IMG/VR virus record: IMGVR_UViG_3300007535_000003
Coordinates: 1 to 64,000 of that record
Length of the DNA stretch: 64,000 nt
Direction: 5' to 3' (one strand)
Origin: a virus
Below are positions 32,956-60,641 of the stretch, one piece after another. The notes below the pieces were generated by a model that was given only the letters and a program-made list of their open reading frames with translations, did not search any database and was not told the DNA's origin. Numbering within the stretch: position 1 is the stretch's first letter; each line of letters begins with the position of its first letter. The position numbers and the translations under genes were made by a program.

Positions 32956-33315
32956 CTATTCAACTAAGTATTTGTCATTCTTATCTTCAGATTCTACAGC
33001 ATCATAGTCCCAAGTACCATCATTGTATACTTTAAGATCTGAAGACTTCCTATGTCTGTATATAAGCTCCTTTTGCTCAAAAGGTTTAATAACTGAGAAG
33101 CTAATATTAAACCTACGCTTACGTTTATCCCCTACTGATTTAGTGGGTTTATTAGCTTTAAAGTCTTCAGCTATAAGAGCTCTAACATAGTCCCTCTCCT
33201 CTTTAGACTCTGGAGTACGTGTATAGTAGTCTTTAGAATCTACATTATCAACATTCACACCTGCAGTACCCCATGTACCATCTGTCCTTAATACGTTTAT
33301 TTGCCTATTTAACAT
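32956..33315 (-). CDS. Hypothetical protein
   Basis: 119-aa ORF. Confidence 0.55.
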   Translation of the reverse strand: MLNRQINVLRTDGTWGTAGVNVDNVDSKDYYTRTPESKEERDYVRALIAEDFKANKPTKSVGDKRKRRFNISFSVIKPFEQKELIYRHRKSSDLKVYNDGTWDYDAVESEDKNDKYLVE

Positions 33316-40845: not shown

Positions 40846-40965
40846 GGTCCGTTCGTCTAGTGGTAGGACGCCGAGCTGTTAATACTTTATACATGCACTA
40901 GCTATGTTAGAGTATCAACCATGGTTTGCCCCACGGAAACGGAGGTTCGACTCCTCCACGGACTG
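40846..40965 (+). tRNA. tRNA-like RNA (Glu/Asp-type body) with the anticodon arm extended into a long hairpin
   Basis: Acceptor GGTCCGT/ACGGACT; D-arm GTCTAGTGGTAGGAC; T-arm GGAGG-TTCGACT-CCTCC; about 45-50 extra nt in the anticodon arm. Confidence 0.7.
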
Positions 40966-40970
40966 CTGTT

Positions 40971-41163
40971 AGCCATATAGCTCAAAAGTGTTACACTCAA
41001 GTTCCTAGGAATCGGCTGTAACCCCCAAGGATATGCAGAGGAGAATGGAACTTATTTGGACTTAAAATCCAATCCATTCTAGGCCACCTCACGCAGAGTC
41101 CGAGTAGCGGAAGAGCCCCTAATAAATTATAGGGAGATCTGGGTTCGAGTCCCAGTATGGCTA
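40971..41163 (+). tRNA. tRNA-like RNA with ~120-nt structured insertion in the D-loop
   Basis: Acceptor AGCCATA/TATGGCT; D-stem GCTC/GAGC; CCCTA/TAGGG arm with an 8-nt loop; T-arm CTGGG-TTCGAGT-CCCAG. Confidence 0.7.
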
Positions 41164-59199: not shown

Positions 59200-59808
59200 A
59201 TGCCATTATACGACATGACCAAAGATGTTCAAAAAGAGGGTAACGGTAGTGCTTATTTGGAAGCTGGTATTCATGAAAACATCGTGCTAAGTGATGTATC
59301 ATATAACGAATCTAGGAATGGTAACAAATTTCTAGCTTTCTATTTCTCCGATGAGAATGGGAATCAAGTACCTAAAACAGAATGGGAACCCAATGGAGAG
59401 AATCAAGAAAGCAAAGTTAATAAACAACTAGCTAGAATAAAGCATATTGCCGTAAACTCAGGTATTTTGAGCGAAGATGAGTTCGTCTTCAAAGCAGAAG
59501 ATTTTGAGAGTTTCGCTAAACAAGTAGTTGAGAAACTAAAATCTAAACAAGATCAATGGAAAGATCATAAGCTTAGGGTAAAAGTAGTATATGATTTTAA
59601 CAACTATACAACTTTGCCTAGCTACGCTAAATTTGATTGGCTAGAAAATATGAATATACCTGCGGATCAATCAAAGATTAAGATCTTGCCTATAGATAAA
59701 ATGGAGAGAGATAAACCTGATTCTACTCAGACTTCATCTAACCCATTTGATAGTAATACCCAGGAACAGGGTAAGAGTTCAAAGACTGATGAAAATGTTC
59801 CATTCTAA
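59200..59808 (+). CDS. Single-stranded DNA-binding protein (putative)
   Basis: Follows the ATPase; acidic tail ending DENVPF. Confidence 0.6.
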   Translation: MPLYDMTKDVQKEGNGSAYLEAGIHENIVLSDVSYNESRNGNKFLAFYFSDENGNQVPKTEWEPNGENQESKVNKQLARIKHIAVNSGILSEDEFVFKAEDFESFAKQVVEKLKSKQDQWKDHKLRVKVVYDFNNYTTLPSYAKFDWLENMNIPADQSKIKILPIDKMERDKPDSTQTSSNPFDSNTQEQGKSSKTDENVPF

Positions 59809-59906
59809 ATTAGCATATAATATCCCTCTTCGGAGGGTACATATATATACCCAGGGCTTTGTTTTACAACAAGGCCCTATTTTTTGCTAGCTCAAGTATA
59901 ATAACA

Positions 59907-60297
59907 AGCTCGATAGCGGAACCAGAAGACGCACTGATTAGCCTTGACCCCTAAGGCTTGAAATTGGGGGGAGGCCTTGCTATCCTAAGAAACTGAATCT
60001 TTTTATATCAATGACAAGATATAAAGATAGCAACGCTCGTGGGCGTAGAATAACGAGCAAAGGTACAACTGTGCACTAAGTATTATATACCTGCAAAGAA
60101 TATTAAATACGTATAGTTGATTACCGGTCAGGACGCACTAAATGGTAGTAATAGAATCCATTCAAAGAATCTATTGACCCGATAAATACTAAGTTATAGT
60201 GCAATATCCAGTAATAGACACGTTGAATTGAAGTTCGACTTAATACTACTAACAAGTAAAGTAAGTAAGTGTTGCAGGTTCAAGCCCTGCTCGAGCT
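59907..60297 (+). ncRNA. tRNA-framed ~390-nt structured RNA
   Basis: Acceptor AGCTCGA/TCGAGCT; D-arm GCG...CGC; T-arm GCAGG-TTCAAGC-CCTGC; ~320-nt structured insert at the anticodon position. Confidence 0.65.
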
Positions 60298-60305
60298 TGT
60301 TACTA

Positions 60306-60375
60306 GCCGGGTAGCTCAACGGTAGAGCCTAGGATTTTACCCTAGAGAAGCGAGGTTCGAGTCCTTGCCCCGGCA
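60306..60375 (+). tRNA. Atypical tRNA, anticodon TTT (Lys-like)
   Basis: GCCGGG/CCCGGC, GCTCAACGGTAGAGC, CTAGG-ATTTTAC-CCTAG, GCGAGG-TTCGAGT-CCTTGC. Confidence 0.65.
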
Positions 60376-60389
60376 CTAAATTAATAAGC

Positions 60390-60641
60390 ATGAAAAAATA
60401 TAATACATTTGTAACATACGCAACTAACGACAAGGGCGAAGATATCACAGAAGATAACAAATTAATATGGCATAAGTATAAAAAGGGTAGTAGAAAAGAA
60501 TATGTAAGCGTATCTAAAAGAGCTCAAGATGGGGATATACCTCAATTGAATGAACCTAATAGTAGAACTGTTTCATACTACACGAGAAATATACCTAAAT
60601 TCGGCGAAGAGAGAACTGAGTTCATTATTTTTGAAAGCTAG
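60390..60641 (+). CDS. Hypothetical protein
   Basis: 83-aa ORF. Confidence 0.55.
   Translation: MKKYNTFVTYATNDKGEDITEDNKLIWHKYKKGSRKEYVSVSKRAQDGDIPQLNEPNSRTVSYYTRNIPKFGEERTEFIIFES

What the first reader, a model, noticed from the sequence alone, without database searches (positions are those of the whole stretch)
59907..60297. ~390-nt RNA framed by a tRNA elbow, with a pk1-like pseudoknot but a non-Ala acceptor
Seen: acceptor AGCTCGA/TCGAGCT (extending to 10 bp), a Leu/Ser-like D-arm and a canonical T-arm. The ~320-nt insert opens with an H-type pseudoknot (AGCCTT/AAGGCT stem; loop CCCC pairing with the G-run at 59966). Further helices follow: TTGCTATC/GATAGCAA, GCTCGT/ACGAGC and TGCACTA(60072)/TAGTGCA(60197). 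I found no group I P7 core, no G3:U70 pair and no clear tag frame. Inference: size and layout recall tmRNA, but it seems a distinct class, or a divergent intron. It is the third tRNA-plus-cargo RNA in this window, suggesting tRNA frames are used as processing or stability scaffolds.
Basis: partly seen in the sequence, partly recalled or inferred. Interest (0 to 1): 0.75.

Follow-up and report, generated by a model that had tools for sequence, protein, structure and literature searches.

The report
Phage tRNA-framed RNA with giant insert
A soil crAss-like phage encodes a 391-base RNA that keeps the outer shell of a leucine tRNA but carries 341 bases of other folded RNA where the anticodon arm should be. 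It is an unusually large member of a little-studied phage RNA family (phage T5 'RNA1' type) whose job is unknown, and it is not a tmRNA or a self-splicing intron.

Summary
At 59907-60297 (+) a 7-bp acceptor stem, a Leu-type D-arm and a canonical T-arm enclose a 341-nt insert, and the listed helices are present. The tmRNA and intron readings fail. There is no G3:U70, no credible tag frame and no ARAGORN tmRNA call, and Rfam gives no tmRNA or group I match even at E<=10. The proposed pseudoknot competes with a more stable nested fold.

The frame matches phage tRNA-Leu-framed, anticodon-less RNAs. Phage T5 RNA1 (annotated 'tRNA-like stable RNA with unknown functions') is a named member. In my own IMG/VR sample, 25 of 74 closed Leu-type frames were oversize (99-221 nt). 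All 25 had a T-stem close to ours (23 of 25 RCAGG), and default ARAGORN called none of them a tRNA.

This copy is the largest I saw. The first 199 nt of its insert form a well-defined five-way-junction module (z -4.65). I found no homologue of the insert anywhere, so there is no covariation and no expression evidence.

The site, between a conserved 202-aa gene and the primase, is a swap hotspot in relatives. Most likely the RNA is a non-decoding stable RNA released through its tRNA-like ends; the cargo's function is unknown.

The scan has already noted this family in at least 11 other genomes, the listed ones crAss-like phages, and read this same stretch twice.

The parts
59853..59885 (+). Intrinsic terminator-like hairpin plus T-run ending the upstream 202-aa gene's transcript, about 20 nt before the RNA
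   Evidence: 11-bp stem 59853-59878, then ATTTTTTG
59899..59906 (+). 5' leader that pairs with the 3' trailer 60298-60305 (7 of 8 pairs), extending the terminal helix to 15 bp; overlaps a perfect TATAAT (59897-59902)
59907..59913 (+). Acceptor stem, 5' strand (AGCTCGA)
   Evidence: family model R1 starts its 5'-half alignment exactly here
59914..59933 (+). U8-A9, Leu-type D-arm (GCG / GAACCAGAAGA / CGC) and A26; 14 of 19 positions match the family consensus UGGCGGAAUUGGUAGACGC; G19 is kept, G18 is A
59934..60132 (+). Insert domain 1: 199-nt module closed by CUGAUU/GGUCAG, with four helices radiating from a five-way junction; includes the candidate pseudoknot region 59940-59975
   Evidence: z -4.65, MFE close to centroid; opposite strand z -2.74
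60133..60273 (+). Insert domain 2: 141 nt, weakly defined fold; hairpin 60222-60239 and an 11-bp interrupted hairpin 60242-60273 abutting the T-arm
   Evidence: z -1.66
60274..60290 (+). T-arm GCAGG-UUCAAGC-CCUGC, preceded by U48
   Evidence: same RCAGG/CCUGY stem in 23 of the 25 oversize family frames; the other two are close variants, GTAGG and CCCGG
60291..60298 (+). Acceptor stem 3' strand (TCGAGCT) and discriminator U; no encoded CCA
60306..60376 (+). Adjacent canonical tRNA-Lys(UUU), 8 nt downstream; part of the same accessory island
60390..60641 (+). 83-aa orphan ORF between tRNA-Lys and the primase, absent from relatives; third element of the island

Best explanation
The gene encodes a non-decoding, tRNA-Leu-framed stable RNA of the kind exemplified by phage T5 RNA1. 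Here it carries an exceptionally large, two-part insert.

Shown:
- The acceptor stem, Leu-type D-arm and T-arm of a class II tRNA are intact, and most tertiary-core positions are in place (U8, A14, A15:U48, G19:C56, U54:A58).
- The anticodon arm is absent and replaced by 341 nt.
- The first 199 nt of the insert form a discrete, strand-specific five-way-junction module.
- The gene sits with tRNA-Lys and an orphan ORF in a spot that is empty or differently filled in related phages.

Inferred:
- The RNA is transcribed with its neighbours.
- Host RNase P cuts it at 59906/59907, using the 12-bp acceptor/T-arm stack. 3' trimming follows, helped by RNase P cleavage of the next tRNA at 60305/60306.
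- The RNA then persists because the tRNA shell protects it, so the shell acts as a processing and stability handle and the insert does the specific work.
- With U73, C3:G70 and no anticodon it is probably not aminoacylated and cannot decode.

The cargo's target is unknown. Given the swap-hotspot position next to tRNA-Lys, my best guess is that it binds or decoys a host factor during takeover or counter-defence.
For: Frame anatomy.

The frame matches T5 RNA1 and the relative L002. My family model R1 scores T5 RNA1 at 67 bits and L002 at 57 bits. On this RNA it finds the 5' half starting exactly at 59907 and the 3' half ending at 60298.

Family reality, tested here:
- 25 of 74 closed Leu-type frames from IMG/VR are 99-221 nt.
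- All 25 have 7/7 acceptor pairing and a T-stem like ours (RCAGG in 23, close variants in two).
- Default ARAGORN calls none of them a tRNA. With introns allowed, the isotype and intron position scatter.
- Ten contigs share one frame but carry unrelated inserts.
- L232 and L249 share one insert but have fully compensated, different acceptor stems.

T5 RNA1 and T4 rnaC/rnaD are annotated as stable RNAs.

Insert structure: z -4.65 for domain 1, about 10 kcal/mol better than its opposite strand.

Hotspot: relatives have nothing, tRNA-Lys(CUU) alone, a 60-nt mini tRNA-like, or a 165-nt Leu-framed RNA at this site.
Against: - No homologue of the insert exists in any collection searched, so there is no covariation for it.
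- No RNA-seq run holds it, so expression and processing are unproven.
- The frame departs from the family consensus at G9>A, G18>A and A73>U.
- The insert (341 nt) lies outside the 45-114-nt range of the inserts I measured (frames up to 221 nt overall).
- Insert G+C (36%) equals the genome background, and domain 2 folds no better than chance (z -1.66).
- The family model cannot span the whole RNA, so membership rests on the two halves and on manual alignment.
- The 15-bp leader-trailer helix could hinder RNase P.
Confidence: 0.6

Rival explanations
1. An inert or decaying relic. A tRNA-framed gene that has been bloated by insertion or duplication of junk sequence and no longer has a function of its own. 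It may still be transcribed and cut out because the ends are intact.
For: - The insert is a singleton with no homologue.
- Its G+C equals the genome's, and domain 2 is not significantly structured.
- The frame departs from the family at G18 and N73.
- The site turns over quickly, and one relative carries a 60-nt version with the anticodon region simply missing.
- An 8-nt direct repeat GACGCACT flanks domain 1, as a target duplication would. About 1.5 such repeats are expected by chance.
Against: - All three frame helices are perfect, and the terminal helix is extended by 7 of 8 further pairs (roughly 4e-4 by chance).
- Domain 1 is strongly and strand-specifically structured.
- About 500 nt of non-coding DNA is kept in a densely packed genome.
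- Identical copies occur in contigs of two further soil runs, filed under other samples and studies.
Confidence: 0.22
2. An interrupted real tRNA. The insert is an intron that is removed, by self-splicing or by host enzymes, to give a functional decoder.
For:
- This phage has a bona fide group I intron elsewhere.
- Phage tRNAs with group I introns exist, for example L287.
- The 3' end shares AGTAAAGTAA with the L287 intron end.
Against: - There is no group I or group II match at E<=10, and none of the conserved core motifs are visible.
- ARAGORN's anticodon stem has only 2 Watson-Crick pairs and 1 G-U in 5, and A34 is unnatural for Ile.
- The same forced calls scatter over 10 isotypes in family members.
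- The phage has no RtcB, RNA ligase or splicing endonuclease.
- The shared 10-mer is reached by 18 of 500 shuffles.
Confidence: 0.05
3. A tmRNA-like ribosome-rescue RNA of a new, non-alanine class.
For: Its size (about 390 nt) fits. The tRNA-like domain is formed by the two ends, and a possible small pseudoknot follows the 5' part.
Against: - C3:G70 and U73.
- A true D-stem.
- No tag frame ending in a hydrophobic tail. The best frames read AKNIKYV* and ALSIIYLQRILNTYS* (my reading).
- ARAGORN finds no tmRNA and Rfam finds none.
- The frame clearly belongs with short anticodon-less RNAs that have no room for a tag.
Confidence: 0.02
4. A cis-acting DNA or RNA element of the replication module, such as an origin with iterons or a leader regulating the primase operon, with the tRNA-like ends being incidental.
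For: - It lies among replication genes: helicase, annealing protein, primase.
- It is AT-rich with short direct repeats (AGTAATAGA x2, GCACTAA x2) at spacings of 62-63 nt.
Against: - The repeats are short and at the chance level, and Tandem Repeats Finder finds nothing.
- Most relatives with the same replication genes have an empty 50-60-nt spacer here, so the site is not essential for replication.
- The tRNA frame is too complete to be incidental.
Confidence: 0.04

Closest known systems
Phage T5 RNA1 (AY543070 30501-30644) and RNA2 (32959-33083), annotated 'tRNA-like stable RNA with unknown functions'
   Same: - RNA1 has a terminal acceptor helix, a Leu-type D-arm (GCCGGAAUUGGUAGACGG), a canonical T-arm and no anticodon arm, with other RNA in its place.
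- RNA2 shares the GCAGG/CCUGU T-stem.
- Both lie among phage tRNA genes.
   Different: - The T5 inserts are about 75 nt; this one is 341 nt and has two domains.
- This copy has A9, A18 and U73.
- The insert sequences are unrelated.
- T5 RNA1 is known to accumulate as a stable RNA; nothing is known about expression here.
Phage T4 small stable RNAs, species 1 (rnaC) and species 2 (rnaD)
   Same: They are non-decoding stable RNAs next to tRNA genes. rnaC ends in a tRNA-like T-arm plus acceptor that my family model recognises (25 bits). Their function has been unknown for decades (my own knowledge).
   Different: They have no Leu-type D-arm and are 119-139 nt long. The tRNA-like part is only the 3' portion of rnaC.
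tmRNA (SsrA)
   Same: The two ends form a tRNA-like domain that encloses a few hundred nt of structured RNA. It is processed by RNase P (established knowledge).
   Different: tmRNA needs G3:U70, lacks a D-stem, and carries a resume codon and tag frame flanked by pseudoknots. None of these are met here.
Engineered tRNA scaffolds for recombinant RNA (Ponchon and Dardel design; recalled from the literature, not checked here)
   Same: The anticodon arm of a tRNA is replaced by a cargo RNA, so that the cell processes and stabilises the chimera.
   Different: Those are man-made and usually based on tRNA-Lys or tRNA-Met. This one is natural, uses a Leu-type frame, and has no single closing stem for the whole cargo.
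Group I intron-bearing phage tRNA genes (e.g. tRNA-Asn(GUU) in L287:3500-4168, minus strand)
   Same: A tRNA frame with the same T-arm sequence is interrupted by several hundred nt.
   Different: L287 keeps a perfect anticodon stem (CTCGG/CCGAG), shows recognisable P4-P6 and P7 motifs and carries an ORF. Our RNA has none of these.

Membership tests
Phage tRNA-Leu-framed anticodon-less RNAs (T5 RNA1 type) | 5' and 3' ends form a 7-bp acceptor stem stacked directly on a 5-bp T-stem | tested here: met
   AGCTCGA/TCGAGCT 7/7, followed immediately by CCTGC/GCAGG
Phage tRNA-Leu-framed anticodon-less RNAs (T5 RNA1 type) | Leu-type D-arm: 3-bp stem GCG/CGC with an 11-nt loop GAAyyGGuAGA | tested here: met
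   GCG-GAACCAGAAGA-CGC. 14 of 19 positions match the consensus. It departs at A9, C16, C17, A18 and A20; G19 and A21 are kept
Phage tRNA-Leu-framed anticodon-less RNAs (T5 RNA1 type) | T-arm RCAGG-UUCRANY-CCUGY preceded by U48 | tested here: met
   GUU-GCAGG-UUCAAGC-CCUGC. The RCAGG stem occurs in 23 of 25 oversize frames, whereas normal tRNA-Leu in the same sample show varied stems
Phage tRNA-Leu-framed anticodon-less RNAs (T5 RNA1 type) | No anticodon arm; unrelated RNA in its place | tested here: met
   Default ARAGORN makes no call. The forced call has a bad stem. The Rfam tRNA model is silent
Phage tRNA-Leu-framed anticodon-less RNAs (T5 RNA1 type) | Recognised as one unit by a covariance model of the family | tested here: inconclusive
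   R1 cannot span 391 nt. It finds the 5' half from 59907 (8.8 bits) and the 3' half to 60298 (18.1 bits) separately
Phage tRNA-Leu-framed anticodon-less RNAs (T5 RNA1 type) | Discriminator A73 (16 of 22 aligned members) | tested here: not met
   U at 60298. L002 and T5 RNA1 also have U, so this is common but not universal
Phage tRNA-Leu-framed anticodon-less RNAs (T5 RNA1 type) | Accumulates as a discrete stable RNA | not testable with these tools
   Only four soil DNA runs hold the stretch and none is RNA
tmRNA | G3:U70 alanine identity pair | tested here: not met
   C3:G70
tmRNA | Resume codon and tag reading frame between pseudoknots | tested here: not met
   No frame with a tag-like end; ARAGORN tmRNA search is negative; Rfam is negative at E<=10
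tmRNA | PK1 pseudoknot after the tRNA-like 5' part | tested here: inconclusive
   The candidate knot exists on paper, but a nested fold of -16.5 kcal/mol is preferred and there is no covariation
Group I intron in a tRNA gene | Catalytic core P3-P9 recognisable | tested here: not met
   RF00028 finds the phage's other intron at 97 bits but nothing in 59700-60500 at E<=10. Caveat: Rfam at its gathering score also missed the ORF-bearing intron in L287
Group I intron in a tRNA gene | Excision restores a canonical anticodon stem-loop | tested here: not met
   The best candidate stems have a mismatch plus G-U pairs and no U33
Canonical decoding tRNA | 5-bp anticodon stem with a 7-nt loop, U33 and a purine at 37 | tested here: not met
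   The hairpin 60222-60239 has a 4-, 6- or 8-nt loop; nothing else is in register

The most novel reading that the evidence does not exclude
The 199-nt five-way-junction module (59934-60132) is a new functional RNA: a protein sponge, a decoy for a tRNA-directed host defence, or a ligand-binding or catalytic fold. Phages would deliver it on a leucine-tRNA chassis. The chassis would then be a general, natural expression cassette for exchangeable RNA effectors, able to carry modules far larger than those seen in T5.
Probability: 0.25. Interest if true: 0.8.

Novelty: new member of a known kind. Interest (0 to 1): 0.42.

Why it matters
The small tRNA-like stable RNAs of phages T4 and T5 have had no known function for about fifty years.

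This copy shows two things. The same leucine-tRNA shell can hold a 341-nt, multi-helix insert. It also sits, together with tRNA-Lys and an orphan gene, in a site that close relatives fill differently, which is the pattern of accessory or counter-defence genes.

If the inserts are effectors, the family would be a large, untapped set of phage regulatory RNAs and a natural precedent for tRNA-scaffold RNA expression.

On its own this single, orphan copy adds size range and context rather than mechanism.

Tried and rejected
- **Homologue searches for the insert, all negative.**
  - blastn 'distant' against 50,697 phage records.
  - nhmmer and blastn against 13 syntenic loci, 119 random viral loci, 117 Leu-frame loci and five whole relatives' records.
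  - Exact 17-18-mers from the insert and the D-arm in IMG/VR. These gave 0, 0 and one chance hit inside a coding region.
  - A looser 3'-motif pattern gave only chance matches.
- **Metagenome scan with the neighbouring protein.** It found 7 loci; none carries this RNA.
- **Sequencing runs.** No RNA holder is listed. Four soil DNA runs have low-depth contigs that are identical where they cover the RNA, so there are no variants.
- **Family model R1.** It could not span the whole RNA.
- **Protein-spliced intron idea.** No RtcB, RNA ligase or tRNA splicing endonuclease in the phage.
- **Antisense-target idea.**
  - The best match to the rest of the genome (19 of 20 nt at 82262-82281) has the same sense as the giant minus-strand gene, so it is not antisense.
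  - The truly antisense matches are only 13-14 nt, at the chance level.
- **Mobile-insertion idea for domain 1.** There is an 8-nt repeat GACGCACT but no terminal inverted repeats and no other copy in the genome.
- **Internal tandem duplication.** Only weak block similarity, and Tandem Repeats Finder finds nothing.
- **Shared 10-mer with the L287 intron end.** 18 of 500 shuffles do as well.
- **Literature searches.** They found no paper describing this family.

Full report
**Setting**

The window is the first 64 kb of a 97,237-bp virus record, estimated 94% complete. Its head, portal, polymerase and primase genes match phage families. The only sequencing runs that hold the stretch are soil metagenomes. 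Genes on the + strand from about 35.8 kb onwards form the early and replication block: DnaB-like helicase, Sak4-like annealing protein, then primase. The finding lies in the 740-nt gap between a conserved 202-aa gene of unknown function (59200-59808) and the primase.

**Checking the observation**

The frame is real.
- AGCTCGA (59907-13) pairs 7/7 with TCGAGCT (60291-97).
- The T-arm GCAGG-TTCAAGC-CCTGC (60274-90) abuts the acceptor.
- A 3-bp D-stem (GCG/CGC) with an 11-nt loop follows U8-A9.

The terminal helix continues into leader and trailer for 7 of 8 further pairs, giving 15 bp in all.

The RNA folds far better than shuffles: z -4.42 for the whole RNA. Rfam finds nothing in 59700-60500 other than the next gene, tRNA-Lys(UUU), even at E<=10. 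Default ARAGORN finds neither a tRNA nor a tmRNA here.

The pseudoknot is the one weak point. Its two stems compete with a nested hairpin that is the predicted optimum at -16.5 kcal/mol, and nothing is available to arbitrate.

The other two 'tRNA-plus-cargo' genes are also real. One is a tRNA-Asn(GUU) frame with a 49-51-nt insert in the anticodon loop. The other is a tRNA frame with a 126-nt D-loop insert.

**What the insert looks like**

It has two parts.
- Domain 1, 59934-60132 (199 nt), is closed by CUGAUU/GGUCAG and holds four helices around a five-way junction. The fold is well defined (MFE close to centroid, z -4.65). It is about 10 kcal/mol better than the opposite strand (z -2.74), which argues for an RNA read from the + strand.
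- Domain 2, 60133-60273, folds no better than chance (z -1.66). It ends in an 11-bp interrupted hairpin that abuts the T-arm, where a class II variable arm would sit.

Insert G+C is 36%, like the genome; the frame is 60%.

**The site in relatives**

Thirteen viral and seven metagenomic loci carry the same two flanking genes. At this spot they hold:
- only a 50-60-nt spacer with a terminator, in most of them;
- tRNA-Lys(CUU) alone, in L137;
- tRNA-Lys(CUU) plus a further ~160-nt RNA with a T-arm, in L008;
- a 60-nt tRNA-like with D-arm and T-arm but nothing in between, in L001, L006 and L134;
- a 165-nt RNA in L002 whose D-arm (GGCGGAACGGTAGACGC) and 3' end (…ACTAACAAAGATGTTGCAAGG…) resemble ours.

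L001 and L002 are almost identical in the flanks and in the acceptor stem, but wholly different inside it. The site is therefore a swap hotspot. In our phage it holds three accessory items: this RNA, tRNA-Lys(UUU) and an 83-aa orphan ORF.

**Which family**

The D-arm is the leucine-tRNA type. Earlier notes of this scan pointed to phage T5 RNA1, and I checked that lead myself.

The T5 record annotates RNA1 and RNA2 as 'tRNA-like stable RNA with unknown functions'. RNA1 has a terminal acceptor helix, the D-arm GCCGGAAUUGGUAGACGG, a T-arm, and about 75 nt of other RNA instead of an anticodon arm.

I then scanned IMG/VR for the Leu-type D-arm motif. For each hit I looked for a downstream T-arm followed by the complement of the acceptor.
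- Of 74 closed frames, 48 had normal length, and ARAGORN called them mostly tRNA-Leu.
- 25 were 99-221 nt, every one with 7/7 acceptor pairing.
- 23 of those 25 had the T-stem ACAGG or GCAGG, the stem of our RNA; the other two had the close variants GTAGG and CCCGG. Normal tRNA-Leu in the same sample showed many different stems.
- None of the 25 was callable as a tRNA by default ARAGORN.
- With introns allowed, ARAGORN's calls scatter over ten isotypes, unnatural anticodons and intron positions 31-40. That is what a forced fit gives, and our 'tRNA-Ile(AAT)' call is of the same kind.

Frame and insert behave as separate modules.
- Ten contigs share one frame (acceptor AGTCAGG) with inserts that have no detectable similarity.
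- L232 and L249 share one 204-nt RNA at about 90% identity, but have completely different, fully compensated acceptor stems.

Rfam has no family for these RNAs. It either misses them or scores the shorter ones as weak tRNA.

A covariance model built from 22 members scores T5 RNA1 at 67 bits and L002 at 57 bits. It also finds the tRNA-like 3' part of T4 rnaC. On our RNA it cannot bridge 341 nt. It does find the 5' half beginning exactly at 59907 and the 3' half ending at 60298.

Against the family consensus, our frame matches 14 of 19 D-arm positions. It keeps U8, A14, A15, G19, A21 and U48, but has A9, A18 and U73.

**What it is not**

*tmRNA.* C3:G70, U73, a genuine D-stem, no tag-like frame and no detection by ARAGORN or Rfam.

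*Self-splicing intron.* The Rfam group I model finds the phage's other intron at 97 bits but nothing here. No core motif is visible, and no excision restores an anticodon arm. As a caveat, Rfam at its gathering score also missed an ORF-bearing group I intron in L287 that I could recognise by eye. Our insert shows none of those motifs.

*Protein-spliced intron.* The phage has no RtcB, RNA ligase or splicing endonuclease.

*Replication origin.* Relatives with the same replication genes lack the region altogether.

**How it most likely works**

Shown: an intact tRNA upper body, no decoding arm, a discrete structured module, and a position in an accessory hotspot beside a tRNA.

Inferred from established tRNA biology:
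- RNase P recognises the 12-bp acceptor/T-arm stack and would cut at 59906/59907.
- RNase P cleavage of tRNA-Lys at 60305/60306 frees the 8-nt trailer for trimming and CCA addition.
- The tRNA shell would protect the product, as it does in tmRNA and in engineered tRNA scaffolds.

With U73, no G3:U70 and no anticodon, charging is unlikely. What the cargo binds is unknown. The neighbourhood suggests host takeover or counter-defence: tRNA-Lys is a known target of anticodon nucleases, and the site turns over fast. That is a guess, not a result.

**Limits**

No homologue of the insert was found by any route. There is therefore no covariation for the insert. The DNA contigs that cover it are identical, and no RNA data exist. 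A recently bloated, functionless member therefore cannot be excluded; I put it at about one in five.

**Verdict**

The tmRNA and intron readings are rejected, and the scaffold reading is supported. This is a new and unusually large member of the phage tRNA-Leu-framed RNA kind, already noted many times in this scan and represented in the literature only by the uncharacterised stable RNAs of T5 and T4.

Noticed in passing
G000 69495-91778, minus strand (outside the window): A single open reading frame of 7,427 aa, about 23% of the genome. It contains a 19/20 same-sense match (82262-82281) to 60238-60257 of the RNA.
   Followed up: partly
L001:2926-2990 (also L006, L134): A 60-nt tRNA-like gene with acceptor, D-arm (GTA-AAAAGGGTAA-TAC) and T-arm but only 'ATT' where the anticodon and variable arms should be. 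It has the same acceptor and flanks as the 165-nt RNA of L002, so the interior has been exchanged.
   Followed up: partly
L008:2816-2975: Downstream of tRNA-Lys(CUU) lies a further ~160 nt of non-coding RNA-like sequence. It ends in the T-arm GATGG-TTCGATT-CCATC and a 9-12-bp terminal helix. ARAGORN does not call it.
   Followed up: no
window 59809-59852 and the same place in L001, L008, L137, L138, L140: A TATATATA-rich motif directly follows the stop codon of the 202-aa gene in all relatives, before the terminator hairpin. It may be a phage promoter or processing signal.
   Followed up: no
window 59897-59902: A perfect TATAAT hexamer sits 5 nt upstream of the first base of the RNA and overlaps the leader that pairs with the trailer.
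   Followed up: no
window 60390-60641: An 83-aa orphan ORF lies between tRNA-Lys and the primase. It is absent from all relatives and has no PHROG or Pfam family. The primase probably starts near 60637, not at 60550.
   Followed up: partly
window 40846-40965 and 40971-41163: Two more tRNA frames with inserts. One is tRNA-Asn(GUU) with 49-51 nt after U36/A37, too short for a group I intron. The other is a frame with 126 nt in the D-loop.
   Followed up: partly
L287:3500-4168, minus strand: tRNA-Asn(GUU) interrupted by a ~600-nt group I intron carrying an ORF. Rfam missed the intron at its gathering score, which shows the limit of that negative test.
   Followed up: partly
L232:~3354 and L249:8868 (204-nt RNAs): The same Leu-framed RNA occurs in two contigs at about 90% identity. 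The acceptor stems are entirely different but fully compensated, and there is at least one compensatory change inside the insert (GGAATAT/ATATTCC versus GGGATAT/ATATCCC).
   Followed up: partly
L183:791-839: A DUF2693-FD RNA (RF02926, 76 bits), recently described as a tRNA mimic, lies about 600 nt from a 166-nt Leu-framed RNA in the same viral contig.
   Followed up: no
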